Source of the DNA: Sphaeroforma arctica JP610
Lineage: Eukaryota
Direction of reading: 5' to 3'
DNA: 46,084 nt
Assembly (NCBI RefSeq): GCF_001186125.1
Contig: NW_014040141.1
Coordinates: 1-46,084, forward strand
Shown here: piece after piece, positions 1-40,299 of the stretch
How the letters are laid out: every line of letters begins with the position of its first letter
Position numbering within the stretch: position 1 is the first letter of the stretch
The notes under the pieces: generated by a model
The model's input: the letters and a program-made list of their open reading frames with translations, nothing else
Databases searched by the model: none
What the model was told of the DNA's origin: nothing
Position numbers and translations under genes: made by a program

Positions 1-698
1 TTTTCACGGGTCATCTGGAGCGCGGAAAGTGGCCTCGACGAAACCAAGCCCCACAGATCCCATACACCATTGCATGCCTCCGAACGTATTCATAATACCA
101 CAAATGTCAAACTATTTACAAAACAAATTTCGAGCACGAATACGGGCCAACTCTAGTTCATGGTTACGACTCATCCAGAACGCAGACCAGGGCAAAATCA
201 AACCAGTATATGATACGATAATTAACAAGCTATGGAAAGTGGCCTCGACGAAACCAACCCCCACAGATCCCATACACCATTGCATGCCTCCGAACGTATT
301 CATAATACCACAAATGTCAAACTATTTACAAAACAAAATAAATCATTATCCAAACAACCATCCATACCCAACACGACAGAACCAACAGCACATATCATTA
401 GCTCATTTCGGCAAAAACTATTGAACCAGAAAACACCCTACAAAATACCAGAAGCAACCCATACTGAATTCATACCCCTCGACCAAGATATCTTCACTAC
501 CGCACACATCATGCAAGCTATACTAACATATGATAGCCGAAAGGGCTCCGGCCCCGACGGGATACATATTGATATCTTTAAAGCAGCTATTGAAATCTAT
601 CCCATAGGACACGACCAGGAGGGCAAACCAAACCCCAAGTCTCCAATCCTCATAGCACTCAATTATTTATTTAACAAAATATTACATACCGGTGACGT
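1..698 (+). mobile_element. Non-LTR (LINE) retrotransposon, 5' part of RT ORF (degenerate, interrupted by gypsy insertion)
   Basis: Translation ...YDSRKGSGPDGIHIDIFK...LNYLFNKILHTGDV is the pre-RT 'domain 0' signature of non-LTR elements. It joins in frame to 5696 onward (GDV|PSAW) once 699-5695 is removed. Has a frameshift near 420. Confidence 0.9.
24..337 (+). repeat. Direct duplication of about 104 bp inside the LINE (24-127 and 234-337)
   Basis: ggaaagtggcctcgacgaaacc...tttacaaaacaaa occurs twice, 210 bp apart, with one visible mismatch. Confidence 0.9.
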
Positions 699-870
699 TG
701 TAAGATTCGGTCTAATAAAGGCGATACTAATGTCTTAGAATAAATAAACGCGTAGGTAGATTCTAAGTATCGTGTAAATATCGATATAAATAAACAAAAT
801 GAGACGTTTATGCCTCGTGAAAACAGCAATACTCTGAGGGATTGTGAGGCTGAGACATTGCCTATATATA
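699..870 (-). repeat. Truncated 3' LTR of family A copy 1 (only the last ~172 bp)
   Basis: Reverse complement matches the 3' end of the full LTR at about 35755-35936. Similarity stops abruptly at 870. Confidence 0.85.
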
Positions 871-899
871 GGGTTTTTAAGCATTAAGGCTCGGGATAA

Positions 900-2264
900 A
901 TGCTGTAGGCGGGTAAGTTTTAACTTCCGTTCTTTCAGACGATGGAAACATGCTATCTTTTTCAGCTTGTGACTTATGCAGGCGTTTACGCCATTTTCGA
1001 TTAAAGGCTTTAAATAGTCTTGGTTATAGAAAGCATCTGAAGTCAACTCAGCTATTGTACCGTCTATAAGGCGTGTACGATAGTATGTATAGCCTCCCTT
1101 ATCCGTTCTCCATATAATGTCTTTAAATTCAGAACGATCAAGAGGGGCATTAGAGTCATGTCTTCTTGCGAGTATAATCTCTGTAGTCGGAATACGACTT
1201 GTGCCTATATTAAGCACACTAGAACCGTCGGGATTATTTACCTCGTACGTTCCACTTTTAGTGTCTGCTACAGAGATTATATATGGACCTATCCATTTAG
1301 ATGTTAATACAGTAGCATCGGAATTCCGTTGACGGATGTTAACTCTGTCACCAGCCTGATACTCTGCTATCTTCTTGGTAGTGTTCCAACGCTTTTGTCT
1401 TTTTAATAAGGCTATATTGCGTATTTCTCGCAAGCAAGAATATACAACGTTATAAATACGTTGGACCTTCTCTAACCATGGTAACTCATGGTGATCGGGT
1501 TCGTCCTTGTTAAAAGAGATTTGTAACTCACTATTTCTGCCACGAAAATAGTGAGCGGGTGCAGTTCCTGTAACCGGACCAGCACACTCTTTAATCTGTG
1601 TTTGTACCCACTTAAGGTGGTACGGCCAATCATCTGCATCATCCGTTACTGCAGTACGCAAGAAGAACTTAAGTCTTCTATGGTGCGTTTCATTCGCGCC
1701 TTGCGTTTGCGGCTTATATGGCACACATCTCTTATGGCATATGCCTGATACGAGTACTAGCGATTCCATAACGTCATCGCAGAACTCACTACCGTTATCA
1801 ATGCACATAATACCCGGCCACCCGTGGTCAGCAAAGACTTGGCAACATAATTATGCCACGGTCTGCGTATTCTTATCCTTTAATGGATAGAGCAAGTTAA
1901 ACTGTGACGCCACATCAAAGAAGTGGCATACGTAACGGTCGCCTTTGTGCTCGGACGTGGGCAGGTCAACAAGATTAATGATGACCCTGCGCCATGGAAC
2001 ATCTTCAGTCACACTCTTAAGTGGTGCGAAACCATAGCGCTTGATCTGATTGAGATCACAGTCTGTGCATGACTGATATACTCTGTCCACTAAAGTTGCC
2101 AGCTTAGGGTGGGCGATCCCATGTCGCTTAGCATCTTTAAGTACTTCTACTACGTTCTGGTGCTTCAGCTTATGATTTTGCTTCAGCCAAGCAAGAATGT
2201 TCTCATCATTCTGCTCTTCCAGAATAAAGATAGGGTAATGAGAATCCACTTGCGTGGTTTCCAA
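900..2264 (-). pseudogene. Retroviral-type DDE integrase with GPY/F motif and divergent chromodomain-like tail
   Basis: HKLKH...CTDC zinc finger, INLVDL (first D mutated), IDNGSEF, ANETHHR, KWIGPY, then EFKDIIWRTDKGGYTYYRTRL... An internal stop lies at 1851-1853. Confidence 0.9.
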
Positions 2265-2639
2265 GTCTGTATGTTTCCAGACTCCTGTCCTGCTTTTGCA
2301 TGAGCGTCATAAACGCGCTCATGTGCGTTAGATACACCTGACTTATTAAATAGTCGCATTATATGTGTATACGCTTCAGGATTGTCTTACATTAATCCCT
2401 TCAAAAATAAGGTTTGAAAGACCTCGGGCTTGGACTTTAAGTTATTAAACAGAGTCCTAGCTAGAGACTGACGCTTCTTAACAGTGTCATTAGTAGATTG
2501 TATTTCTTGTGCACAGACGTTAAATGCAGTGTTGCCTTTGAGCTGCTTAACGTTCAATCGGGCAGAGAGTGGAATCTCTGATTCTTTGACCTTGTTAAAG
2601 AAGGTCTCAGAAGGGGTCCATTTGGTTGTTCCAATGGGA

Positions 2640-3039
2640 TCTATACGACATATAATAGTATGTCTCCAGGGCGTCTTCTGGACGGCTCGGGTACCCTGAT
2701 ATAGAAAAGTATCTACTTCCCTATCTAAATATATTGGCTCGCATTGTATCATGCCGATCAATTTATTGAGCCATGGATCTTTACTCCGTAATGGGCAACA
2801 CAACATGATGGTAGCTTTATGTATACGAACATAATTTAATAGCTGGGCAATTAACTGCCATGGTGGATTAGCCCACGCATTATGTTGGGAGAGGTCTATT
2901 TGAAAGGCGTCCCCATAGGATGATTTAAATTCCTGTAATTCGATAGTTGTGCATTATGATGTGCAGCAAACATATCTATGGTATGTGGCCCATATATCTT
3001 TTGAGCCAGTTAAAACCTCCTGGGATTACATTTCCAGTC
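2640..3039 (-). pseudogene. Dam/DIRS-like N6-adenine DNA methyltransferase domain within gypsy Pol
   Basis: Manual translation: DWKCNPRRF*LAQKIYGPHTIDMFAAHHNAQL..(frameshift)..DAFQIDLSQHNAWANPPWQLIAQLLNYVRIHKATIMLCCPLRSKDPWL. This contains a motif I-like IDMFA and the motif IV NPPW (2858-2869). Confidence 0.85.
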
Positions 3040-5045
3040 AGTGGCTAGTAACTCACGTACGGATTTATTAAAGTCCAGTACGAAGCGTAATAACATATCC
3101 GGTAAATGGTTATGTATTCCTGGTAGATGTTTTATATCAAAATAAAACTTTGATATTGTATCATGCCAGCGACTCAGTAATTGCGAGTCGGGTTTCATCT
3201 CTTTCATATATTGAAGAGATTTCTGATCACACATCAGCGCAAATGCTGTTCCGTATAGGTAATCTCGGAAGTGTGTTAGATCTGCCACTATGGCTAATAG
3301 CTCTTGTTTAACAGTTTGATAATTCAACTGTGAAGCATTCATTGCTCGACTAAAGAATTGTATATATCAAGGTTTGTTATATATAACCTGATATAATACT
3401 CTTCATAAGGCTAAATCTGATGCGTCCGTTGCTATTTCAAACGGCACGCCATCGACTGGCCCTTATATAACTGGGGCTTGTTGGACTGCGTGTTTGAGCG
3501 CTTTAAATGTGTCATCATACTCTTTAGTCCACAAGTCTCCTAGTTTGCCTTTATGACATCTTAAGTGTCCAAAAGGTTTAAGGTAGTCAGCTAAGTGTGA
3601 TACTCCATCTGAAAAGAAGTTTACAAACCCACACATGCTGTTAACATCTCTTCCTGTAGTTGGTGTTCGCCAATCTAACAGGTATTCTACCTTACCGGGG
3701 TCGATTTTAATACCTTCCCCAGATATATGGTAGCCTAAGAGCTGTATTTCGCACATTGCGAAGTGGCATTTCTTCTCGTTATTCTTGAATTTTTGCTCAT
3801 TGAGTCTCTTAAGGACTCGTCTGACTAATGCGGCATGTTCGCCTGTAGTCTTAGGGTTTTAGGGTTTTAGGCCATCTATATAGACTTGCACGTTAGGCAT
3901 GTCTGCAAACATTTCTTCCATTACTTGTTGGAAGAAGGCTGGTAAAGAGTGTAACCCGAAAGGTGCACCTCTGAACCGGTACTGTTTGCCTTTCCACGTA
4001 AAGCTGAAGTATTTACGGTGGGGTTCATATACCTGCATTTGATGGCAACCTTGTGTAAGGTCTATAGTTGTAAACACTGTAGCACCTTCCATCCTTTGCA
4101 GTAGCTCGTTAATACGAGGTAAGTGAAAGCTATGAGTCGGCAATAAATAATTTATTGTACTCATATCTAAACATACCTAGAGTGAGTAAATCACTCATTC
4201 CGACTATAATGTCGTACTTCTGTGACATCTTAATTATCACAGCTTGAGTAGTGATACTCCTATCATCGGCCAGGGATATTTTAACATCTGGGGCCATGGT
4301 ATCACACTTAGCAGTTTTATCATCAGCTAAAATGAGATGAGTTGTTTGTTTTCTCCTTTCGATATCTTTTATTAATGCAAAGCGATCGGATATACATGAT
4401 ATTTCGGAACCAGGATCAATCAACGCAAGGATTTTATTTCCATTGCAATATACAGGGATTATTACACGTTCATCTAAAGAGTCGTTGTATTGTCTGTACC
4501 TGGTAGTACCGTCACTCTAAATTAATGTTGGGCTTTCGGTCACAAGACTTAATGTGATAACCATTGGTTGTCTCACACTTGTCACACTTAGTAAGAAAGT
4601 GTGTACAGGTGGATGCATGTCTACCATTCCAATAGCCGTTAGGGGTTAACTGGTACATGTCATATCCACACTGGGCGTCGGCACATTTCTTAATCTCCTT
4701 AAATGGAGGTTCCATGTCCTTCGCTCCTGCACGTGCCCGTTTATTGGGTCGCGTGGATAAAGTGGAGTGACAAGCACGTGTATGTTGGGGTCTCTCGTTT
4801 GAGGTCTGCCTGGATACGTACCCGTGATCGGTGAACTCCCGCGGCTTCTTAACAGCCGCTTTTCCCATCGATGTTACTCGATGTGCGGGAAAAAGAGTGG
4901 ATACAGTATCATAAAACTGTTCCCATGTAAGTCGGGATAGATGAAACTTTGTTTCATGTCCCTTGTCTCGAGCCTCAGTCGCGTGTTTACGTCGCAACTC
5001 GGTGTACAGACTCTCACGGTCGTTANNNNNNNNNNNNNNNNNNNN

Positions 5046-5691
5046 ACATTGCCTATATATAATCCTCCCAATACTGTTTCCGCCGAAGGGATTTTATTTA
5101 ATGTTTCGTTGTCGCTCTATTCTGGGGCGAATCCGAGAGACTCATAAAATCATATCTTTAGAAAAAAAGAAGAAAAAAAAGAAAAATAACTCTTGACGTC
5201 TTTAGTTATTGTCTTAACCAATAACTTGCCACTATCAAGAATTATCGACTTAGCTTTCATCAGACTGGCACATCTGGTTGGCTTATCGGAGGATCAACTA
5301 GGTAACGTTAATAGTCCCTAGAAACCTATATTCGGTTGAGCCATCTCGCTACCGGAGTACTCAGATATAAATAAAATTGGAAAGTAAATAAAGTTCTATT
5401 CAACTCTTTATGTTTGGTATTTTACTGAGGCATTTTATTGGCCTCATCCAAATATCTGATAGCAAATCGGAAAAGGTATTAATTAATAAAACTATTAGAA
5501 ACCATTTTAGGAAACTTAAGTTCCTCGTGCTATTAAGAGCACATTTAGGAAACTTGAGTTCCTCGTACTATTAAGAGTACGTTTAGGAAACTTGAGTTCC
5601 TCGTACTATTAGGAGTACGTTTAGGAATTTGCGTACTGCTTAAGAGTACGTTTATAACATAGAGTCTAATGCGGAGGCCCGGCTTATTACA
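5046..5691 (-). repeat. 5' LTR of family A copy 1 (its 3' end is lost in the gap)
   Basis: Reverse complement aligns along its length with 35175-35770 and starts TGTAATAAGCC. Confidence 0.9.
5506..5653. repeat. 38-bp tandem repeat (about 3.5 units) in the LTR
   Basis: tttaggaaacttgagttcctcgtactattaagagtacg units start at 5506, 5544, 5582 and 5620 (last one degenerate). Confidence 0.85.
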
Positions 5692-7556
5692 ACGTGCCGT
5701 CAGCCTGGCTATGTACACTTATTGTACCCATACCCAAATCTGAGGCACCATCAGGTCCAGAATTCTTCCGACCTATTACCCTCACACAGAGACTGCGCCG
5801 TATTTTCCAAATAGTAATGCTGAGTTACATGAACCAACTTTCTGCATTCAAAACACATAGCAGGCAAGGTGGTTTTAAATCAGGCTACTCATGCTTCACA
5901 CACGCTCTTACCCTACACGAATACATCAATCAATCAAGCCCCACAGCGCAACACACCCACCAGGTATTTCTGGATATTGAAAAAGCATATGACTCGGTTA
6001 AGCTCGACCGTCTATGGCGACTTTTACAAAACAGACGGGTACCCACCCCATTAATCACTTTATTCCAAAATATGTACCACAATGTAATCTCTCGTATTAC
6101 ATACCAACAAGTTCTCGGACCTACTTTCACACGTTTAGCCCAGGGTGACCCAATAGCCCCTACACTCTTCAACATATACATTGACCCGCTACTCGATAGT
6201 CTTGCCAAAGTCGACCCCCGAGGCTTTCTCGGCTGGGTAGACGACTTAGCACTATACAACCGCGACCATCGCAAATTGCAATTAAGCCTCAACCATGCTT
6301 ATGTATGGGGCAAACGCTCCGGCGTAAAATTCCACCCAAAGAAATCGATACACGTAGCACCACCAAATCCCAAACTAGAACACAAGTTCATGCTTGGACA
6401 AAATAGTATCGATGCCCACCCTACTGCTAGGTACCTGGGATTCCCTATGGGACCCAAAGGACTAGACATTGTACAAATGCTAGAAACACGTATAAACAAA
6501 CTAAATGATTCAATAACCCAAAGTGGCCCTCTTGGCTTTCGAGCCGGTGCGCACCTACACCCACACAACAAGCTTATGATCTTTCGAGTATTTATACTCT
6601 CGAAAATCACCTACGGCCTTGCCTTTATACCATTATCACACTCTTCACTCAAAACACGCATTAATGCACAACTCGACAAACTCGATGTGGTAATCCATAG
6701 AACCTCTGGATATATCACACCCACTGCAGCCCACAAAAAGACCGCAACAAAAGTCACACCAACTATGCTGAAAAAAATTCAGTTCTGTGGATTACTCAAC
6801 GCACAAGCGCTATGCACGTGGCAATGCGTGAGTCTGATAATTCATATAACTCGTATGTCAGACAAAAATCCTTTACAGGAATATCTGGGCAAACAGGCAA
6901 CCATATTTACCCCTATGAGACTCATTATGCTCGCTCGCGAGAACATACTCCACTACCCCCCGTACATAACATACAGGAAACTGAAACAGGCATATACCAA
7001 TAGAAAATCAAACAAAAAGGAAGGCACGCTACATCGACAAGCGGGTCGAGAACTCCGATTTGGACTCATCTACCCAGGCGAGGAAGAGCGGTACCGACTC
7101 GACACGCCGCTCGAACATCACAGCTTCAGCAGTCTCTTATTCAGAGTTCCAACGATAGTCGCACTGTACGTCACGAACAGGTATATGTTCACGCTAGAAA
7201 AGACCCCGGCAGGTCTCACATGCATTGGCTGCAGCAAAACACATTTCACAACATCACACTTCAAATGTCCCCTCGTGTTACCCGACATGTCAAAGCTCAT
7301 CTCACCACAGAAAGAGATAGTAGTTGATAGCAACCTACTCGACGCACTGAGTACTCGTAAGCGCTACACTGACATGCTCACATTACACGACCAATTGGTG
7401 TACTTGCACAAAGGACCCATACCACCCCAAATACTGATGAACTGTGTGTTCCCAGTGCCACGGTTTATGACCACAATAGTACACACTCTCCTCGTAGACT
7501 CTCAACACCCGCAAAATGATTATACTTGGCCGTCGTTAGAACGCAGACGTCGTTAG
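5692..7556 (+). mobile_element. Non-LTR (LINE) retrotransposon, RT core and C-terminal CCHC knuckle
   Basis: The 620-aa ORF has IVPIPK, FRPITL, QGGF, FLDIEKAYDSV, AQGDPIAPTLFN, WVDD, YLG and CIGC-x8-H-x2-C. Confidence 0.93.
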
Positions 7557-13223: not shown

Positions 13224-16200
13224 CTACCTATATACATATCCATCAAACTCTATCTCGGGAAAATCCTCCTCGTCACTTAAACCCTCAGAGGGATCAATTC
13301 TACCTTCCGTCGAATTGTCAGCTGACATCGGACTGCTCTCTGCCAGTGCAACCAGTGTCGCTTCACGTTTTATATTCTTTTCCTTTTTGCTTCTCTTTTG
13401 CTTTTTGCTTTTCTTTCCCCCCCTTTTTTTAGTAGCTCTATCCATGGCCCCATCGACACACTCACTGCTGCTTTCCTTACTTCCAGAATGCTCGCTAGTG
13501 GATGGTGTGTGGCCATTCTTCGCAGCAGTCACTTCATCGCCGACCGTGCCGTTTCCGTCGCTCGTAGTATCAATCTTTCGCTTCCGGCTAGAGATTGATT
13601 TGTTTTCGGTGGTGCTTCCGCTAGTAGCTATTTCGGGTATAATGGTTTTGCTTTTTGTGCGTTTTTCCTGGAAAGAAGCATGCGCACTATCCATATCAAC
13701 GGTTTGCTTGCAAGCGTCTAAATTGGCCGATGCATCGGTAGCTTTATCTTGTGCGTAATCCCTTGCTTTACCCTTGACAACGACAGATGCCCCATTGTAT
13801 TTACTGGTGGCTGCCGTCTGCTTCTGACGCAGCACGTGTATAACACAACTGCCTGCCCCCGTGCGCTGATACTTTGGGGCTAGTTCGGTGGTTGGCACTT
13901 CCGAGCGTGTGAAGTGCTTGGCCGTTGATTCTGTGTAAAACTTTGTTTCCGCCAGGGGATGGTGCACCGGATATCTGAGAGGGTGAACGGCAAGTCACAT
14001 GATAATGTTACTATGGCATCTGACTATGCACACTCGCGCCGTTTACCAGTGGTGACAGATATTGCGCAGGCGCTGCGCAGCATCTGCACTCGAGTACGTT
14101 CCTAGACAGAGGATCGGTACGCTATGACTGACAAAGTGGTTCGCAATATTTATGCATGGTCGACATTGTATGTGCAATGACACATCGGGTGACATGGGCA
14201 AATGTGCGATGGTGTTATATAGAAATGAGCGGATCAATCACCACTCATCGAAGTGAAGCTAAAACCCTAAAATTGTAGCTCGGCATACCAAGCCATGGTA
14301 ATGTGGAAATAGATTGTTGAAAAGGGCCGCAAGCGTTGTTGATGAATCTTAGGGGCAATCCACTGTGATCAAGCACCTTATGACTTCGCACACATACATA
14401 CACTGCGAGTAATACTGAGCATGAGTCAAAGACATCATGTGCGTGCATACCCCTCAGACGACTACGAAGGCTATCAAATGTAAATACAAACTATAAATGT
14501 AGTTCAAATGTGTGCCAACGTACACCTCTGCACTTCAAAGGCATCATGTGTGTGCATACCCCTCCGACGACTACAAAGGCTATCGAATGTAAATGCAAAC
14601 TATAAAGGTGATTCGAATGCGCGGCAACACACACCTCTGCACATTCGCCAGCAGCACGAGCGTATTGGGTCCACTGAGTGCCACCAGTGTCCGCACCAGC
14701 TTGCGCCACTGTTTGGGATCGTTGCCATAGACCACATCACTGGCCAGGATGAGGTCGGGATGGCGGCCAGTGCCATCTGACACGGTGTGCAGAGCTTCTT
14801 TATCACCCCACACCAGTTTCTCCACTCGCGCATCAGTGCAGCCGTTAGATGACATGTTGTCGCGCAACAGTCGCAACACATCGTCGTCTCCTGATGCGTG
14901 GAGAGGTTGGTAGGTTTAAGATAAGAGGAGTGGACGCCAAATACGGATAGCACTGAAGCCGGAGACATATTTGTATAGTTTATGCTTGCTCTTAGGTGTA
15001 ACACAGGCCAAGATGTTACTCCTAAAACCTGAACCCTGAAACAAGAATAGTCCTGAGAATGATACGGTACAATAAATTATGTTTGCTTGTTCGAATTGCA
15101 GCATACCCCCAAAACAAAGTATAAACATACAACTGATACCCACAATGTCTCTGATGTCGTGTTATATATCACAGGAACAAAGAATAAATATACAACTGAT
15201 ACCCACAAGGTCTCTGATGTTGTGAAAGTATATCACAGTGACATATTCTGTACCACCTACCGTCAGTTGCCACCATTCGGATCCCTAGGTTAGACGCGAC
15301 TATAGATGGCAGCCCAAGACCTGCGCCAATCTCTACACCTGTCCTGCCCTGCCACACCACCGCACCGCCACTGGAATTGGAGTGCTCCGCGTCTGCGTTC
15401 CCCTCCACACCCTGACACGTCTTGCCATCCACGCGCATCTCACGCGCACTCCCATCCCACGCACCCTGCAGAGCGCACCGCAGTGCCGGTGAGGCCAGCG
15501 GATGGGCCACACGAGACAGCCACTCGGCCAACACGTGGCTGCCCTCCCACAGCGTCACGCCTGTGTTGCCTCTGCCATGGCCTCCGCAGTTGTTGTCCAC
15601 GCGAGTGCGCACAGACCCTTCGTGGTCCTTGGGCGTCTCACTGGTCAGTGTGATGGTGTTGCCCAGAGCCGGGAATTCGTACTCAATTGTGCGCTTGGAA
15701 GTCACGGCCGTTGTTAATTCAGAGTCTGCACCTCCCATGCGCTCATAAGCGCCTACATACAATCCATAAGGCCATGTGGTGAGTAAACGAACACGTGACC
15801 ATAAGCAGCGCAAGCAGCCAAGACGACATACATAACAGAGTTCCATAGCTTCCTTGCTGATTAAGTGTCCTTGAAAACAAGTCAATAGAGATTAAACGCT
15901 CACAAGCACGGGTGAAACGCCGTACATTCTACACACACTGATGTTCTGGATTTGGTTCATGTGTGCATGAAGGGGATAAAACGGTTCCGCGATAAGGTAC
16001 CTCTGTATTATATATATATAAAAATACAATAGTACGCACATCTACAGAGCAAGCTGATACATAAGCCTACTGCATAACTATGGCAGCCGACCTTACAACG
16101 CCAACACACCACAAGCAAAATATACATCAACACACCACAAGCAAGATATACACCCCATAATCCTCTCAAAGAGTCAACACGAGTTATTCTTCCAAAAAAT

Positions 16201-19200
16201 CAGCAATATATACATCAACACACCACAAGCAAGATACACACCCCTATATTTTCTCAAAGAGTCAACACGAGTTATTCTTCCAAACAACAACAAAAAACAA
16301 CAACAATGAGTTGCATAGAATACACGGAACCATTTGACACACATTAGACTTCTAGCACTCACCGAGGAATTTCAGAAGCTCCTGTGAATTGAATGCACTG
16401 AGGCGGTCCCGGGCGGCTTTGCTGATGCGTGCCACCAGTTGCGGGTGGCCGTCAGCCGTCAGCCCCAGCTCACACAGCGCCCACGTGGTGTTGGTTAAGT
16501 CGCGCGGGTTGTAGTCCTGCAGCAGACACGCGGTCACGCGCACTGCTTCGGCGATGAAGGTTTGGTCTCTGATGTTCAGCACCGCAAAGGCGAACAGCAA
16601 CATGGTCAGGTGCTGTGGCGTGTACTCGCTCGCGTTGTCCCTTTTCCCTTTTTTGAACTTTGGCTCATAATCCGCATCTACGGTCACGCGCTTCAACTGC
16701 CTCACACCCACACTCGACAGCACTTTAAACAGGTGCGGCGCGCGCACATCCAGCTTTGCGTACGCCCATGCCAGAAAGGCCACGTCTCGCGGTTCCTTAT
16801 CAAAGTCACTGGTGCATGTCACTGCCCGTTCCGCAAAGACTGTCATCATGCGGTCGTTCTTCAGACCAACCTTTGCCATCGCATGCGTCGCCGTCGCCAT
16901 CTGCTGGGCCGTGGCTGTGTCAGCTTTCTGGGCTGCGCAAGTGGCCAGCGTATTGAACACACTGTGATTGGCACAGGTGAGCGTCATGAACGCCCAAAGC
17001 ACCATTGACAGTTCCTGCGAATTCATGCGCGCGCTGACGGCCTCGCACGCGCTTTCCAGCGTAGCCATCAGCGGCGCATTGGCGCTTAAGCCCAGCTTAG
17101 CAGCAGCCCACGTGACATTGGTGATCTGCTGGGCCGTGAAGGCATTGGCCGCCACCCACTGCGTGTCGTGGATGAGGCGTGTGGTAAGGTGGCTGATGCC
17201 TTCGCTGCACTGTGTTGTTGCGTCAGTGTGCTCCTGCAGCTTTGCAAATCCATAGAGCGTGTTGGCACACTCCTGTGCATTGAACAGCTGCGCGCGTTCT
17301 GCCACGGCAGAGGACAGCGCCGGCAGCACATCAGTCACCGCTGCCGTAGTGCGCACGCCCCATTCGCCAAACGACGCCAAACTCCACACCACATTACTCA
17401 CTCCCTGCGGCGTCCACCCACTGCGGAAGTCTGTGCCTTTGTCCCTTCGCAAAGACGTGGCAATGTGCTTCGCTAAGCCTTGCACCAGGCCCGTTCGTTG
17501 CGCAGTGGTCTTGGCCATGCCCCACAGCATGTTGCTGAGCTCCTGCGGTTTGAACTCCTCAAAGTGCTGCAGAGCCGCGTGTTGCACACTCTCCTCGAGC
17601 GGTTCATTTCTGATTCCTAATTTGCCGCATGCCCAGAGCAGCCCCGACAACTGCAAAAGAAGGGCAAAAAACTGTGTTAAGGTTTTGAGATGGACGATAA
17701 TGCTGACTGACTACGTGGCGTTTCCATGGCAATATCAATTCTACTAAAATCCGCTGGTCAAATTCCGCCTCAACACGGCGCTGCCTTGGGCGCGTGCTAT
17801 GTTACGTTCAGCACATGCAGCATCCACTCCTTTGTAGCCTCAAGTACGCGATGTCAATGCTGGCTGTGAAACTTAGTCATAGAGCGAGGTGGCAATAGCA
17901 GCAACCACTGACATGATCACAGACTAATTAGGTTTGCATACAGAGGAAAAAACCCTCAAGATCTTAGATTTGAAATTTTTGCGTATTACTTCCGCTGATA
18001 CAATATAAATACGTAATACATGCATATGAGTACGAAATGCATGCATATGGGTACATAATACATGCATATGAGTACATAATATATGCATATGAGTACGTAA
18101 TGCATGATTATGAGTACATAATACATGCATAAGGGTACATAATACATGCATACGAGTATAAACACTTGTACATGACCACATAATATACGCATATGAGTAT
18201 ACAATACATGAATATGACTACATAATACATGCATATGAGTACATAATACATGCATATTAGTACACAATACATGCATATGGGTGCGTAATGCATGCATATG
18301 AGTACGTAATGCATGCATATAAGTACATAATACATGTATATGAGTACATGATACATGTATATTAGTATATCATATATACATATGAGTACATAATACACGC
18401 ACGTGACTACATATTACATGCACATGAGTACATACATAATACATGCGTATGAGTACATAACACATGCATATGACCACATAATACACGCATATGAGTATAT
18501 AATACAAGCATATGTGTATATAATACAAGCATATGTGTATATAATACATGCACATGACTACATAATACATGCATATGAGTACATAATGCATGCAAATGAG
18601 TACATAATGCATGCATATGAGCATAATACATGCACATGAGTACATAATACATATATATGAGTACATAGTACATGTATATGAGTAAGTAATGCATGTATAC
18701 GAGTACATATTATATACACATGAGTACATAATACATACATATGAGTACATAATACATGGATATGAGTACGTAATACATGCATATTAGTACATAATACATG
18801 GTTATGAGTACGTAATGCATGCATATGAGTACAGAATACATGGATATGAGTACGTAATCCATGTACACGAGTATATATTACATACACATGAGTACATAAT
18901 ACATACATACGAGTACATAATACATGCATATGAGTACAAAATAAATGCATGAGCACATAATACATGCAAATGACTACATAATACATGCATATGAGTACAT
19001 AATACATGCATATGAGTACGTAATGCATGCATATGAGTACATAACACATGCAAATGTCTACATAATATATGCATATGAGTACATAATGCATGCAAATGAG
19101 TACGTAATGCATGCATATGACTACGTAATGCATGATTATGAGTTCATAATACATGCATATGAATACATAATACATGCATATTAGTACGTAATACATGCAT

Positions 19201-19912
19201 ATGGGTACGTAATGCATGAATATGAGTACGAAATGCATGCATATGAGTACATAATACATGTATATGAGTACATGATACATGTATAGTAGTACATAATATA
19301 TGCATATGAGTACATAATACATGCACACGACTACATAATACATGCACATGAGTACATAATGCATGCATATGAGTACATAATACATGCACATGACTACATA
19401 ATACATGCATATGAGTACATAATACATGCATATGGGTACGTAATGCATGCATATGGGTACATAATACATGCATATGAGTACGTAATGCATGCATATGGGT
19501 AGATAATACATGCATATGAGTACGTAATGCAGGCATATGAGTACATAATACATGCATATGAGTACGGCATGCATGCATATGAGTACATAATACATGTATT
19601 TGAGTACATAATACATGCATATGAGTTCAGAATACATAGAAATTATTAGCTGATCCAATGCATGTATGTATCAGATATAAGAATACGATGTTGCAAAGCA
19701 GCAAGCTAGTACTAAGCTTAAACTATATGAGAACAGTTGTACCATACAGGCAGATAGATCACATATACTAATGTGAAGCGAATGAAAGCATGGAATACAA
19801 TTTCATCGTATATACACTACACACACACCCATGAGATTATACTATATCAATGATACCAGTTTACTTTTACGCATCCCCATTCGTGCATCATATTAAAACA
19901 TAGTACACACAC

Positions 19913-20515: not shown

Positions 20516-21035
20516 CGCCAAAGTGATGATAAAAAATGGCGAGTTCTCGCTGGCAAACTGCTGCTATTACCAAAACGTTCGCATGCTAATACACATGTCT
20601 CACGCATATACACCTAACACCACTGCTACACTGCAACGCACTCTCGTGTGACACTCTGTAGCTTTATATTAGTTATAGTATTTAAATATGTCAGCCTATT
20701 CAACGCGAGGTGCACGTGCAATCTCTGTCATCGAGTGCGCCAAAATAATCACTTGCCTAATCTGGACATTCTCGACATCATCGCCTATTTTCAAGTATGT
20801 TTCCCCAAAAGGCCCAGAGTCCCAGACTCCCAGAGAGAGGAAGATCCGTAAATACACTTGTCATAATATTTTAAAATACATCTGTAGTCACCAAGCACTT
20901 GCGCAGAAGATAGAATATAAAGGTAAACGTACAGGTAAATGCACGCAAGTGATCCTACAAACACACACAAGTGTCACAAGTCATCATACAAATACACACA
21001 AGTGATCGTGGCTTATTCGCAATCACCCGTTCACA

Positions 21036-21692
21036 ATGGCACGAACTCTTGTGACACAGGCCTTTAGGCTTAGTATAGGTTTACCCTCTACCCCATGGAA
21101 TCACACTCGGTACAGTGTATTTACAAGGCTCAGTGCGGCACAGGCACATTCTGGCCGCACACTCACCTCCTGTGCACACACCCCGTCAAACAATGAAACA
21201 GACGAGTTCACACGACACAGCAAACACTACACAGTACGAGCCATTGGGCGCAAGAGTGCGTGTGAGATCACCTGCAACACAGGCCACACACTGGCCACCG
21301 ACGTCCCAAAGACAATGGGCGGGTCCGATGCCGCACCCCAACCGGTCGAGCACTTACTGGCAGCACTGTGTGGGTGCGCACAGGCCACGGCGACTTTCGT
21401 GTCACGCATGATGACGCCCAGAGTGGCCATTGACCGCATTGAGTTCAATGTGCGTGCCACGAGAGACAGCAGGGGGGCCCTTCAGCTGCCCATTGACGCT
21501 GTGCCCGATGTGCCGTCGCGTTTGCACACAGTGGAAGGGACGGCAACGGTGGTCATGGCTCAGGGGAAGGCAATGACAGCGCGGCAGTTGCAAATTTTTG
21601 GTACTCAGGTGGAGGCTAGATGTCCTGTGGCCAATATGCTGCAGGCCAGTGGCTGTCGCTTACGATTCGAGTGGGTGGCAGAGAGTGCCTGA
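21036..21692 (+). CDS. OsmC/Ohr-family protein with a probable N-terminal mitochondrial presequence
   Basis: Intronless 218-aa ORF with D-x-P-x-x-x-GG...P-x-E-x-LLAAL-x-GC and a second Cys in ARCPVANML. The first ~50 aa are R/S/T-rich and lack acidic residues. Confidence 0.88.
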   Translation: MARTLVTQAFRLSIGLPSTPWNHTRYSVFTRLSAAQAHSGRTLTSCAHTPSNNETDEFTRHSKHYTVRAIGRKSACEITCNTGHTLATDVPKTMGGSDAAPQPVEHLLAALCGCAQATATFVSRMMTPRVAIDRIEFNVRATRDSRGALQLPIDAVPDVPSRLHTVEGTATVVMAQGKAMTARQLQIFGTQVEARCPVANMLQASGCRLRFEWVAESA

Positions 21693-35174: not shown

Positions 35175-35936
35175 TGTAATAGCCGGGCCTCCACATTAGA
35201 CTATGTTATAAATGTACTCTTAAGCAGTACGTAAACTATAAACGTACTCTTAATAGTACAAGGAACTTAAGTTTCCTAAATGGGTTTTAACGGTTTTATT
35301 AATTAATACCTATTCCATTTTACATATCAGATATTTGGACGAGGCCATTAAAAGGCCCCAGTAAAGGACCAAACATAAGATTTGGTCTAGTTCTATTAAT
35401 AGAACTATATTTACTTTCCAAATCTATTTTTATATATGAATACTTCGGTAGCGAGATGGCTCAACCGAATATAGGTTTCTCGGGACTATTAGCGTTTCCT
35501 AGTTTAACCTCCGATCAGCCAACCATATGTGCCAGCCTGATGAAGGCTAAGTCGGTCATTCTTGATAAGTGGCAAGTTATTGGTTAATGCAATAACTAAG
35601 GACATCAAGAGTATTTTTCTTTTTTCTTCTATTTTTTTCTAAAGATAGAACGAGTCTCTCGGATTCGCCGAAACGAAACATATAATAGTTTCTATTAGAG
35701 CGACAACGAAACACTAAATAAAATACCATCGGCGAAAACAGTACTGAGAGGATTATATACAGGCAATATCTCAGCCTCACAATCCCTCAGAGTATTGCTG
35801 TTTTCACGAGGCATACCTAACTTTACTAAAAAGACTCATTTTGCTTATTTACTTTGAATTTGACGATACTTAGACTTTACCTACGCGTTTAATTACTCTA
35901 AGGCGTTAATATCGCCTTGATAGACCGAATCTTACA
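35175..35936 (+). repeat. Complete 762-bp 5' LTR of gypsy family A copy 2
   Basis: TGTAATAGCC...GAATCTTACA with terminal inverted TGTAA/TTACA. Both ends are confirmed by the termini of copy 1. Confidence 0.92.
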
Positions 35937-38900
35937 CATTTTAAAGCTAGCAAAGGTATTAATTACTTAGACTACTTAAACGTAAAGGTAGATAACTACC
36001 ACAAAAAATTCGTGTCCAAGCTAGTCCTTAAGAGATCAGCTAGCAGTCATAACTTAAGATTATGACCAAGAAAGACAATACTCCATCTAAGAAGCGTAGA
36101 GCTGAAAAGAAGAGGATGGAGATAGACGCCGCTGCTGCTGCCGCATTTAACGCGACTGCAGAAGAGGAAACCCAATCCGTAACAGAAATCATTGCTACTG
36201 GTATTAATAACAAGGACAATACAACAGATAAGGGTGAGGACACTCCATTAAGAGAGACGTCCCCTGAAGAAAGAGCCTGCGGGCCAACTATTGCGTCCGC
36301 TTCGAAGCTTACGTTTACGAAGTCAAGAAGCGACGCAAAAGGATCGGTTAAGACGATTCTCACTAATCCTGATGAGAACACGCAGAAGGATCTAACTCCA
36401 ATTACGGAGAAAGGAGACAACCCGCTTAAGAGAGAGGATGAGAAGGAAAGCTCAAAGAGCCGACCCGAATCAGAATCAAACCAGCCATCGCACATAAGTA
36501 AGTTGATCAATGAGAACACTGAACTTAAGAATCAGTTAGCCGCTTTTAAGAAGCGACTGACCATTGAACAGGTAGAGAAGATGTATCAGTCAGGTGAGAA
36601 AGCAAAACGCTTACGCGAACATATTTCTCCCGGTACTACTTAAGCTCTTGAAAATTGGACTGCCCGTCAACTGGAAAAGCCAGTCACGGACGAGCCCGAA
36701 CTACCCGGTTTTCCGATATCCTACGCGAATTTAAACTCCGAAGAGCAGGCACTATTCACGCCAGGAGTATCCCCTGGACATGAGTCTCCAATTCTCGAGG
36801 ATATTATAAACCCCGAGACAAGAAAGAAGACTCAGCAGGAGTTTCCCCATTCGGAAAAGGCCCCACGCCATGTACCAAAGTCTACGGGATATAGTCTTCC
36901 TATGCATCAAGACCCACAGGTGATTATACCACCTGAGCTTCACATTAACGAGAAGCGTAAGTCTTCTTGTAATTATGGACTTTGTGGCACATTCTCGAAG
37001 CACTAAAGCTGCCCGTAGGCGCGCCAACGACATCGAGTTTAATCGAGTCGATCGGTACGCTATTCAGCAGCCGGCCGAAGATTTCCAATCTGAAGAGGTA
37101 ACCGCGCTAAATCAGGCCGTAGATGATTGTACTCTGCAGATGGAGATGGCGCCTGACTTACACGACGCTAGTGACGTCACCTACTACGCTAATCTAATCG
37201 CAGTCCAGGGCTCAGCTCAATTTCAGCCGAGCCAGCACCAAACACTACCATACAGAGCTACATATTGAAGCTCGATGCTGATTTTCAACGTCCCGATATT
37301 AAGAAGGACACGATACAGCGATGGTACAAGTTTCTGGCTATGCATTTGTTCTGTAAGAGCATAAGCAATAATGACCGAGAAAGTTTGTATACTAAACTTA
37401 GACGTAAGTACGCAAACGAACCTCGATATTTAGGTCACGAAGCAAAGTTTCATCTGACCCGCCTTGAATGGGACAAGTTCTATCAAACTGTGTCCACTTT
37501 ATATACTTCCAGTCGAGTAACCTCGCAGGCGAAGGCGGTTGTTAAGAAACCGTGGGAGCAGACCGATCAAGGGTACGTATCCAGGCAGACCTCCAACGAG
37601 AGACCCCAACATACACGTCCACGTGAATCTACTCAATTTACACGCCCTGTTATGAAGGTGCGTGCGGAGCACAAGGAACCTGCATACAAGCAAGTTAAGA
37701 AATATACTGATGAGAAATGTGGTTATGACATGTACCAGTTAACTCCTAACGGTTACTGGAACGGAAAGCATGCCCAATCTTGTAAACACTATCTTACAAA
37801 ATGCGATAAATTTGTGAAGACCAATGGCTACCACACTAAATTGTGTAACGTCAGACCCGACATTAAGTTGAACTGACGATACTACCGGGTACAATCGATA
37901 CACAGACAGTACAACAACTCTTTAGATGAGCGTGTAATAATCCCTGTAAAGTCCAATGGAAATAAATTCTTTGCGTTGATTGATCCTAATTCTGAAATTT
38001 CATGTATATCCGATCGCGTTGCATTAATGAAAGATATCGAAAGGAGAACACAAACAACTCACCTCATTTTAGCTGATGAGAAAACCTCCAAGTGTGAAAC
38101 TATGGCAAAAGATGTTGAGATCTCGTTGGCCGATGATAGGAGTATCACTACCCAAGCTGTGATAGTTAAGATGTCACAGAAGTACGACATTATAGTCGGA
38201 ATGAGCGACTTACTCACTTTAGGTATAACCGTAACTGGTTTACCAAATAACATAGATCCATTAAAGGATCAATCAGACGATAACTGTCTGAAACCATATA
38301 AGCCCCCGTCAGACACAGTCAAGGCATTAATACCTGACTTTGTGAACAAAATCATGGATCTGATTCTTGTTAATGTGAAAATAAAGATCACAGATTGGGC
38401 AAAATTCCGCTTTAACGACGGATATGTCAGCCTTGACTTAACCAAGGTAGACTTTACACAGTTAAAGTGTCCCTCAAGGAACTATCTATCCTGGAGACAC
38501 GAGGCTGTGGTAAAAGAACAAGTTCAGAAATGGCTAGCAGATGGTATGACAGAAATTAACTATCAACAGACGCCAGTTAACTTGGCATTGTTAGCCGTAG
38601 ACCAACATAACTCTGACCGATCATTTAAGAACGTCAGAATATATTTAGATATGAGTCCGATAAATAAATTTTTGCCGACGCATAGCTTTCACCTACCTTG
38701 TATTAACGAGCTACTGCGAAGGAAGGAAGGTGCTACATTATTTACAACTATAGACCTTACACAAGGATACCATCAAATGCAGATATATGAACCGCATCGT
38801 AAATACTTTAGTTTTACATGGAAAGGTAAACAATACAGATTCAGATGTGTATCTATTGGGCTGCNNNNNNNNNNNNNNNNNNNNATAGATGACATAGTTG

Positions 38901-39756
38901 TCTTTTTCAGAACAAAGGGCGAATATGCCGTAATAGTCCGGCGAGTCCTTCAGAAACTCAACGAACAAAACTTCAAGATTAATGAGAAGAAAGGTCACTT
39001 CGCCATGAGCGAAATATATCTGGGGAATGTATTAAATTCAACCCCGGTAAGGTGGAACACCTGCTATATTGGCGAACACCAACTACAGGAAGAGATGTGA
39101 ACAGCATGTGTGGGTTTGTAAACTTCTTTTCAGATGGAGTACAACACTTGGCTGATTACCTTAAACCTTTTGGACACTTAAGATGTCATAAAGGCAAACT
39201 GGGAGACTTGTGGACTAAAGAGTGTGATGACGCATTTAAATCACTCAAACACGCAGTCCAACAAGCCCTTGTTGTATAAGGACCAGTCGATGGCGTGCCG
39301 TTTGAAATAGCAACGGACGCCTCCGACTTAGCCCTAGGAGGAGTATTATAACAGGTTATAGATAACAAACCGAGATATATACAATTCTTTAGTCGAACAA
39401 TGAATGCTTCACAGTTGAATTATCCAACTGTTAAACAAGAGCTATTAGCCATAGTGGCAGCTCTAACACACTTCCGAGAATACTTATACGTAACAGCATT
39501 TACGCTGATATGTGATCAGAAATCTCTTCAATATATGAAAGGAATCAAACCCGACTCACAATTAATGAGTCGCTGGCATGATACAAAATTAAAGTTTCAT
39601 TTTGATATGAAACATCTGACAGGAATACATAATCATTTACCGGATACGTTATCACGCTTCGTACCGGACTTTAATAAATCCGTACGTGAGTTACTAGCCA
39701 ATGACTGGAAATGTAACCCCAGGTGGTTTGAACTGGATCAAAAGGTATTTGGGCCA
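35175..39756 (+). mobile_element. Ty3/gypsy family A copy 2 (LTR, gag, PR, RT, RH, start of MTase; 3' truncated)
   Basis: Broken gag at 36062-37876 with terminal Cys/His knuckles, then PR LIDPNS, RT (IDD after the gap) and RNase H. Collinear with copy 1. Confidence 0.93.
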
Positions 39757-40299
39757 AGTTCGGGTACCTTGATATAGGAAAGTATCTACTTCCCTATCTA
39801 AACATATTGGCTCGCATTGTATCATGCTTATTAATTTATTGAGTCATGGTTCTTTACTCTATAATAGGCAACACAACGTGATGGTAACTTTATGTATTGA
39901 ACATAATTTAATAGCTGAGCAATTAACTGCCATGGTGGATTAGCCCACGCATTATGTTTGGAGAGGTCTACTTGAAAGGCGTCTCTAATAGGATGTATTT
40001 TATAAATCTTCTAGGCTATCTATCTAGTTGTGCAGTATGTTGTAGTAATTCGCTAGTTGTGCATTATGATGTGCAGCAAATATATCTATGGTATGTGGCC
40101 CATATATCTTTTGAGCCAGTTCAAACCACCTGGGATTACATTTCCAGTCAGTGGCTAGTTGCTCACGTACGGATCTATTAAAGTCCGGTACGAAGCGTGA
40201 TAACATATCCGGTAAATGGTTATGTATCCCTGGTAGATGTTTAATATCAAAATGAAACTTTTATATTGTATCATGCCAACGACTCAGTAATTGAGAGTC
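39757..40299 (-). mobile_element. Inverted family A fragment (RNase H end and adenine MTase domain)
   Basis: Matches 2686-3190 in the same orientation. Encodes IDIFAAHHN...DAF...WANPPW (NPPW at 39930-39941). Confidence 0.9.

What the first reader, a model, noticed from the sequence alone, without database searches (positions are those of the whole stretch)
2640..3039. Ty3/gypsy LTR retrotransposon carrying an N6-adenine DNA methyltransferase between RNase H and integrase
Seen: directly after RNase H (...NHLPDxLSRF) the frame continues DWKCNPRWFELAQKIYGPHTID(M/I)FAAHHNAQL...DAFQ(I/V)DLSxHNAWANPPWQLIAQLL...LCCP...PW, then about 120 aa of unknown sequence, then the HHCC-DDE integrase. The TAA at 3010-3012 is GAA in the other two copies, so the domain was in frame with Pol. 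NPPW is intact in both copies that cover it (2858-2869 and 39930-39941). The ORF track splits the domain, so it is easy to miss. Established: (N/D)PP(Y/F/W) is catalytic motif IV of amino-methyltransferases, and a Dam-like domain with this DxFA/DAF/NPP layout follows RNase H in DIRS1-group tyrosine-recombinase retroelements. Canonical gypsy Pol is PR-RT-RH-IN with no MTase. This element is a true LTR/DDE element (TG..CA ends, 4-bp TSD). Inference: a gypsy lineage that acquired the RH-MT module and may adenine-methylate its own cDNA or insertion site, for example to mimic an active-chromatin 6mA mark or protect the cDNA. I cannot check whether the arrangement has been reported before.
Basis: partly seen in the sequence, partly recalled or inferred. 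Interest (0 to 1): 0.88.

Follow-up and report, generated by a model that had tools for sequence, protein, structure and literature searches.

The report
Gypsy retrotransposon carrying adenine methyltransferase domain
This is a broken copy of a very common jumping gene whose enzyme chain carries a phage-type adenine-methylating domain that likely marks the element's new DNA copies so that they stay active; the design is real, but a 2026 preprint already described it in the group of protists that this host likely belongs to.

Summary
Window 699-5691 (minus strand) is a decayed Ty3/gypsy LTR element (TG..CA ends, ACGT target duplication) with a Dam-like methyltransferase (MT) domain at 2630-3039, between RNase H and integrase. 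This copy has a stop and a one-base frameshift in the domain. Intact relatives carry PR-RT-RH-MT-IN in one ORF, so it is not a misassembly. The RT is gypsy-type, and RT and MT trees give the same clade, which holds Abeoforma whisleri proteins; Sphaeroforma arctica proteins are close relatives. The MT model (pLDDT 96) matches small phage Dams and, among solved structures, PCIF1/CAPAM. It is not new: bioRxiv 10.64898/2026.05.21.726589 describes DAM-LTRs, names an ichthyosporean lineage and proposes the same 6mA-seeding model; its E. coli activity test was negative. This scan noted such elements before on other DNA (23 notes, at least 3 genomes). Still open: whether the domain is active, and on DNA, hybrid or RNA.

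The parts
695..698 (.). target-site duplication ACGT (left)
699..870 (-). 3' LTR, outer part only; ends in CA
   Evidence: matches the end of the full LTR at 35175-35936; most run contigs continue at 870 into the rest of the LTR
738..1850 (-). integrase core (DNGSE, GANE) and C-terminal part; the frame runs on into the LTR remnant
   Evidence: 56% identical over 281 aa to P0002, E 2e-103; motifs
1854..2306 (-). end of linker and integrase HHCC zinc finger (first H at 2174, CTDC at 2069)
2307..2629 (-). variable linker between MT and integrase
   Evidence: 33% identity between intact relatives against 57-77% for RT, RH, MT and IN core
2630..3039 (-). Dam-like (PF05869-type) N6-adenine methyltransferase domain, about 137 codons; broken in this copy by a stop at 3010-3012 and a one-base frameshift near 2911
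   Evidence: 72% identical to the intact domain of P0002, which hits Pfam Dam at E 4.6e-7
2962..2976 (-). DMFAA, aligned to the D-x-x-A site of phage Dams (inferred SAM-binding motif I)
2858..2869 (-). NPPW, catalytic motif IV
3040..3366 (-). RNase H (gypsy type), C-terminal part
   Evidence: Pfam RT_RNaseH E 5e-19
3466..4176 (-). reverse transcriptase, in two pieces
   Evidence: Pfam RVT_1 E 1.7e-10 and 0.0037; tree
4133..4516 (-). aspartic protease
   Evidence: Pfam Asp_protease_2 E 3.5e-5
4515..5024 (-). likely C-terminal part of gag, cut by the N gap at 5026-5045
   Evidence: DNA match to 37369-38226; no Pfam hit; gag is inferred from position
5047..5691 (-). 5' LTR, outer part; starts with TG
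5692..5695 (.). target-site duplication ACGT (right)
35175..39759 (+). second copy: full 762-bp LTR, likely gag, PR, RT, RH and the first codons of the MT domain
39760..40299 (-). third, inverted and decayed fragment: end of RH and most of the MT domain, NPPW at 39930-39941
   Evidence: 86.5% identical to 2687-3189; translation
5692..7556 (+). non-LTR (LINE-type) RT reading frame into which the element inserted; its front part lies at 226-698
   Evidence: Pfam RVT_1 E 1.4e-26; the join of the two parts is inferred from the target duplication

Best explanation
This is a decayed copy of a high-copy Ty3/gypsy LTR retrotransposon whose Pol polyprotein carries a phage-Dam-type adenine methyltransferase domain between RNase H and integrase, and in active copies that domain likely methylates adenines of the element's newly made cDNA so that new insertions would arrive with a 6mA mark of active chromatin. 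Shown here: the architecture, the gypsy-type RT, the breaks in this copy, intact relatives, and conservation of the domain and its motifs. Predicted: a complete small MTase fold. Inferred from gypsy biology: Pol is packaged in the particle with the RNA, so the domain meets reverse-transcription intermediates. Inferred and untested: SAM-dependent N6 methylation of cDNA or of the RNA:DNA hybrid, then upkeep of the mark by host AMT1. I put the identity of the element at about 0.95 and the cDNA-methylation mechanism at about 0.45.
For: Single-ORF PR-RT-RH-Dam-IN proteins from Logan, NCBI, JGI, ENA and EukProt records. 17 of the 19 non-redundant full MT+IN rows have MT between RT and IN. RT tree: window row inside gypsy, in a clade with 11 MT-bearing integrase elements (SH-aLRT 98); all 44 DIRS-like rows on the far side of a branch with 100. 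MT tree recovers the same clade (98), so the domain was inherited with the RT over long times. MT identity between intact families (66%) is like RT (62%) and above IN core (57%) and linker (33%). NPP-aromatic in 18 of 19 clade members. AF2 model pLDDT 96, pTM 0.90; best viral matches are phage N6-adenine MTases, TM 0.73-0.77, E 1.5e-8 to 1.4e-7; end-to-end alignment with 170- and 177-aa phage Dams. The preprint reports more 6mA and more expression on DAM-LTRs than on other LTRs in S. arctica and A. whisleri.
Against: No activity has been shown: the preprint's expression of eukaryotic DAMs in dam-minus E. coli gave no rise in 6mA. Its 6mA enrichment is a correlation that host AMT1 acting on transcribed copies could also give (my inference). 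One intact close family (P0001) has CPPW in place of NPPW yet keeps the domain at 66% identity. Iyer et al. judged DIRS1 MT domains likely inactive. dN/dS between the decayed window copies is uninformative (MT 0.58 on 104 codons and 16 changes; RH 1.02 and 0.25). The Pfam Dam scores of the two closest intact relatives as whole proteins (22.9 and 26.2 bits) are under the 28.1 cut-off.
Confidence: 0.8

Rival explanations
1. The domain is kept as a non-catalytic nucleic-acid or SAM-binding module of Pol (packaging, cDNA handling or linker structure); 6mA on these elements is laid only by host AMT1.
For: Negative E. coli assay; Iyer et al. call DIRS1 MT domains likely inactive; P0001 keeps the domain with CPPW; many DIRS-like rows have FPP or HPP in place of NPP; DIRS elements keep the domain in lineages without 6mA.
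Against: 18 of 19 members of this clade keep NPP-aromatic and nearly all keep D-x-x-A; motifs line up with annotated phage Dams end to end.
Confidence: 0.27
2. The domain is an RNA adenosine methyltransferase that would mark the element's own RNA (cap-adjacent or internal A, or the RNA strand of the hybrid), as its structural relative PCIF1/CAPAM does for mRNA caps.
For: Best solved-structure match is PCIF1/CAPAM: Foldseek E 1.8e-5, TM 0.67-0.69; VIA Z 9.9, rmsd 3.4 A over 133 residues, ahead of Dim1/KsgA/Erm (8.0-8.7) and T4 Dam (8.0). Iyer et al. place DIRS1 MT in the PCIF1 clade. An RNA substrate would explain the negative DNA assay.
Against: Predicted phage DNA MTases fit better (TM up to 0.77, E 1.5e-8) than viral PCIF1-like proteins (TM up to 0.68, E 9e-5); 50 of 61 aligned members hit Pfam Dam and 1 of 61 hits PCIF1_WW. 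A sequence search of the PDB with the family profile found no relative, so PCIF1 may lead only because no close phage Dam is solved. The model covers only about 160 residues of the roughly 480-residue PCIF1 chain.
Confidence: 0.15
3. The order RH-MT-IN is an assembly or nesting artefact that joins a DIRS RT-RH-MT to a gypsy integrase.
For: The window assembly is poor here: N gaps, partial LTRs, an inverted fragment; no laid contig spans the whole element.
Against: The RT is gypsy-type, not DIRS-type; single-ORF proteins with this order come from several independent sources and from a named other genus; run contigs cover all 30 bins of the element.
Confidence: 0.02

Closest known systems
Ichthyosporean DAM-LTR lineage (Fernandez-Moreno et al., bioRxiv 10.64898/2026.05.21.726589; whole main text read; supplements not seen)
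   Same: Ty3/gypsy-type RT, DAM domain in Pol, Asn-Pro-Pro motif, no recognisable chromodomain in the window copy; the clade here holds Abeoforma whisleri proteins, and Sphaeroforma arctica proteins are close relatives, two of the three species the preprint names; same proposed 6mA-seeding model.
   Different: Nothing in architecture. Two nuances: the preprint says eukaryotic DAMs lack CD-1 and TR-1, whereas against small phage Dams (170-177 aa) the domain aligns end to end; and it says the lineage lacks chromodomains, whereas several clade members have a weak chromodomain-like tail. Whether this exact family is in its tables could not be checked.
DIRS1-like tyrosine-recombinase retrotransposons, pol RT-RH-MT (Piednoel et al. 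2011, PMC3266345; passages read)
   Same: Homologous MT domain directly after RNase H, same motif layout; function unknown there too.
   Different: DIRS have a tyrosine recombinase and inverted terminal repeats; this element has protease, DDE integrase, direct LTRs with target duplication, and a gypsy-type RT.
Small phage DNA N6-adenine methyltransferases (Pfam Dam PF05869, phrog_111)
   Same: Fold, size and motifs.
   Different: Stand-alone phage proteins, 17-24% identical to P0126 in the alignment; here a domain of a retroelement polyprotein with NPPW in place of NPPY.
PCIF1/CAPAM cap-specific RNA m6A methyltransferase (PDB 6irw, 6irx; Iyer et al., PMC4738411, passages read)
   Same: Closest solved structure; Iyer et al. 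put DIRS1 MT in this clade.
   Different: 14% identity; only the catalytic core is shared; RNA substrate not shown here.
Retrotransposons with cytosine methyltransferases (de Mendoza et al. 2018, PMC5890265; search listing only)
   Same: Retroelement that has captured a DNA methyltransferase domain.
   Different: C5-cytosine enzymes (DNMT), other hosts.

Membership tests
Ty3/gypsy LTR retrotransposon | pol order PR-RT-RH-IN | tested here: met
   in the window; in intact relatives
Ty3/gypsy LTR retrotransposon | RT groups with gypsy, not DIRS | tested here: met
   (quick IQ-TREE, 126 rows; DIRS-like split 100; labels by domain content, tyrosine recombinase not checked)
Ty3/gypsy LTR retrotransposon | direct LTRs with TG..CA ends and a 4-6 bp target duplication | tested here: met
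   both LTRs of this copy are partial, full LTR seen at 35175-35936
Ty3/gypsy LTR retrotransposon | primer-binding site behind the 5' LTR | tested here: inconclusive
   no TGG start behind the LTR of the second copy and no self-priming match above shuffles; host tRNAs not searched
DAM-LTR (ichthyosporean lineage) | DAM (PF05869-type) domain inside the Pol of an integrase element | tested here: met
DAM-LTR (ichthyosporean lineage) | groups with Sphaeroforma, Abeoforma or Pirum elements in RT and DAM trees | tested here: met
   P0121 (A. whisleri) in the RT and MT clades, P0118 (A. whisleri) in the MT clade; S. arctica P0153 43% identical over 122 aa to the window ORF; S. arctica rows were not in the trees
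DAM-LTR (ichthyosporean lineage) | no chromodomain | tested here: inconclusive
   none found in the window copy, P0001 or P0002 by Pfam; weak Chromo hits in clade members P0004, P0006, P0122, P0125 (E 3e-4 to 0.08)
DAM-LTR (ichthyosporean lineage) | host is an ichthyosporean with AMT1; copies enriched in 6mA | not testable with these tools
   no genome held; run organisms are coded; no methylation data
N6-adenine amino-methyltransferase | SAM-dependent MTase fold | tested here: met
   predicted model of intact relative P0002
N6-adenine amino-methyltransferase | (N/D/S)PP(Y/F/W) motif IV and a SAM-binding motif | tested here: met
   motif names recalled, positions aligned to annotated phage Dams
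N6-adenine amino-methyltransferase | catalytic activity on DNA | not testable with these tools
   preprint assay negative
DIRS1-like element | tyrosine recombinase, inverted terminal repeats, DIRS-type RT | tested here: not met
   DDE integrase, direct LTRs, gypsy RT

The most novel reading that the evidence does not exclude
The retroelement 'Dam' domain is a complete minimal amino-methyltransferase, nearest among solved structures to the RNA cap methylase PCIF1/CAPAM, that acts on the element's RNA or on the RNA:DNA hybrid handed on by the neighbouring RNase H rather than on duplex DNA. That would be a retroelement-encoded RNA or hybrid methylase and would explain why the enzyme was silent on E. 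coli DNA.
Probability: 0.15. Interest if true: 0.7.

Novelty: already known. Interest (0 to 1): 0.2.

Why it matters
The class matters: it suggests that jumping genes can write a host mark of active chromatin onto themselves, and the role of the DIRS-type MT domain has long been open. This locus adds little to that, being a dead copy of a described lineage. What is useful is practical: intact relatives with the catalytic motif (P0002, P0121, P0124) and a natural motif variant (P0001) give a ready set for a substrate test on DNA, hybrid and RNA.

Tried and rejected
Whole-genome copy survey: no genome held. ESM Atlas: no answer, so the linker was not searched there and stays unassigned. Pfam and PHROGs on the window's own MT pieces: no useful hit. 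PDB sequence search with the MT profile: no relative. dN/dS between window copies: uninformative. My first reading of a 35-base deletion in copy 1 (note 1) was wrong: run contigs show a one-base frameshift and the extra bases belong to the third copy. Host naming through an OsmC-like host gene: best hits 43-64% identical and uninformative. Expression: no RNA holder listed; contigs cannot show it. Self-priming at the LTR end: longest match 6 bases, within shuffles. GATC or ApT skew in the element: none (GATC 13 seen, 15.2 expected). Chromodomain remnant in the window's integrase tail: no hit with a clade profile; P0001 scored 9.7 bits against a best of 7.2 in 900 shuffles, P0002 3.9. No RH or IN tree was built, no complex was predicted.

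Full report
Observation. The element starts TG, ends CA and is flanked by ACGT on both sides; it sits inside a LINE-type RT frame. Both its LTRs are partial and an N gap lies at 5026-5045; the whole 762-bp LTR is seen in a second copy at 35175-35936. The MT domain spans 2630-3039. In this copy it has a stop at 3010-3012 and a one-base frameshift near 2911. Run contigs show that most copies lack the stop (82 contigs, 99% of summed depth in X1; also in the other 3 of 4 runs) and that contigs in all 4 runs carry one more base at 2911 (19 contigs, 30% of depth in X1, with many others ending loose there); no variant of 5% or more was listed in the NPPW codons. The family is very abundant: 43,876 contigs of run X1 lay on the element, and all 30 bins were covered in 4 of 4 runs, though no contig spans it. 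The third copy (39760-40299, inverted) keeps NPPW but is decayed.

Intact relatives. A search for longer proteins gave 2 hits among 198 candidates, P0001 (1400 aa) and P0002 (1376 aa). Both read PR-RT-RH-MT-linker-IN or the like in one frame, with Pfam Dam (PF05869) at E 7.6e-5 and 7.4e-6, under the curated cut-off as whole proteins; the cut-out domain of P0002 passes it (30.1 bits). Further searches gave 1390 relatives of the domain at E up to 0.001, of which 150 were listed. Of 264 stored proteins, 171 carried the domain: 34 with RT and integrase (near-duplicates included; in 2 of them MT lies ahead of RT), 6 with integrase only, 56 with RT only (DIRS-like) and 75 alone. So the order RH-MT-IN is not an assembly artefact.

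Trees. RT tree of 126 rows (19 MT+IN, 44 DIRS-like, 62 integrase elements without MT, the window; left out were 17 near-duplicates, RT pieces under 150 aa and rows with neither MT nor IN; quick IQ-TREE with SH-aLRT, the careful search did not finish): the DIRS-like rows lie on one side of a branch with support 100; the window row groups with P0001 and P0002 (98) inside a clade of 11 MT+IN rows (98). The MT tree (69 rows) gives the matching clade of 16 rows (98); its deeper forks are weak. MT-bearing integrase elements fall in several places of the RT tree (6 changes, at least 2 forced by starred branches), in line with repeated capture. Named members: P0121 and P0118 are Abeoforma whisleri; P0153 and P0129 are Sphaeroforma arctica (4 named of 10 asked). 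P0153 is 43% identical over 122 aa to the window ORF. I infer an ichthyosporean host (about 0.85); no tool named it.

The domain. An AlphaFold2 model of the P0002 domain on a 61-row alignment has pLDDT 96 and pTM 0.90. Against predicted viral structures the best matches are phage N6-adenine MTases (TM 0.73-0.77, E from 1.5e-8), then viral PCIF1-like proteins. Against solved structures the best match is PCIF1/CAPAM (Foldseek E 1.8e-5; VIA Z 9.9, rmsd 3.4 A, 133 residues), then Dim1, Erm, KsgA and T4 Dam at Z 8.0-8.7. An S. arctica domain hit 483 of 50,697 phage records, and three annotated phage Dams align motif by motif: W, D-x-x-A, DA, NPP-aromatic, P, W. Two of them are only 170 and 177 aa long, so the retroelement domain looks like a whole enzyme of this small type. 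Between P0001 and P0002 the MT is 66% identical, RT 62%, RH 77%, IN core 57%, linker 33%; against three farther relatives MT is 38-47% and RT 42-47%. This argues for purifying selection on the domain. 18 of 19 clade members keep NPP-aromatic; P0001 has CPPW. dN/dS between the decayed window copies gave nothing usable.

Mechanism. Shown: architecture, conservation, motifs. Predicted: fold. Inferred from established gypsy biology (recalled): Pol is packaged with the RNA and cut by the protease, so an MT next to RNase H is present where cDNA is made. Inferred, untested: it methylates adenines of the cDNA or hybrid, and host AMT1 keeps the mark, so the new insertion stays transcribed (about 0.45). 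Rivals: a non-catalytic binding module (0.27), an RNA methylase like PCIF1 (0.15), artefact (0.02).

What is known. A search for gypsy, retrotransposon, adenine methyltransferase and DIRS returned 2 papers. One is Fernandez-Moreno et al., bioRxiv 10.64898/2026.05.21.726589 (whole main text read; supplements closed). [quoted passage not shown] Its main text does not contain PCIF1 or CAPAM. Iyer et al. (PMC4738411, passages) place DIRS1 MT in the PCIF1 clade and call it likely inactive. Piednoel et al. (PMC3266345, passages) describe RT-RH-MT in DIRS with unknown function. Searches listed no other paper on DAM-bearing LTR elements in the library held (listings only). This scan holds 23 earlier notes on such elements in at least 3 other genomes, 8 of them shown, and none for this genome; I had found the preprint before I looked.

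Verdict. Real and correctly read, but already known: a dead copy of a described lineage. Interest 0.2. The open point is the substrate; the closeness to PCIF1 and the failed DNA assay keep an RNA or hybrid substrate alive at about 0.15.

Noticed in passing
proteins P0145 (2144 aa) and P0166 (2382 aa): Gypsy-side elements with the order protease, Exo_endo_phos nuclease (E 9e-16, 3e-11), Dam-like MT with NPPW, RT, RH, integrase. A nuclease-plus-MT block ahead of RT is not described in the preprint's main text; hosts unnamed.
   Followed up: partly
integrase tails of P0004, P0006, P0122, P0125; window about 1000-1130: Clade members have a weak chromodomain-like tail (Pfam Chromo E 3e-4 to 0.08); the window copy, P0001 and P0002 align to it but have lost its typical residues. 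The preprint says the ichthyosporean lineage lacks chromodomains.
   Followed up: partly
protein P0001 residues 694-697: Intact family close to an S. arctica protein has CPPW in place of NPPW: a natural control for catalysis.
   Followed up: no
window 35937-35966: No canonical tRNA primer-binding start behind the LTR and no self-priming match; the priming mode is unexplained.
   Followed up: partly
window 870-880: Integrase tail is joined to the middle of the 3' LTR at a short shared stretch; run contigs continue otherwise on both sides: a deletion or an assembly collapse.
   Followed up: partly
window 39756-39760: The second copy ends at the start of the MT domain and abuts an inverted fragment of another copy, 90.7% identical where they overlap.
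   Followed up: no
window 44750-46084: RT and RNase H of another LTR element on the minus strand; not examined for an MT domain.
   Followed up: no
proteins P0072, P0078: Gypsy-type Pol proteins with a precomputed PF00145 (C5 cytosine methyltransferase; family name recalled) domain.
   Followed up: no
window 14580-15891, 16355-17710, 21009-21692: Host genes: a likely SAM-dependent protein methyltransferase (motifs recalled; no Pfam hit for the exon tested), a FAST-kinase-like protein (E 1.5e-6) and an OsmC-like protein (E 1.2e-10).
   Followed up: partly
window 18000-19670 and 24-337: Long low-complexity tandem array, and a 104-bp 99% identical duplication inside the LINE remnant.
   Followed up: no
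window 32254-34014: Two ORFs that may be remains of a DNA transposase (impression only, not searched).
   Followed up: no
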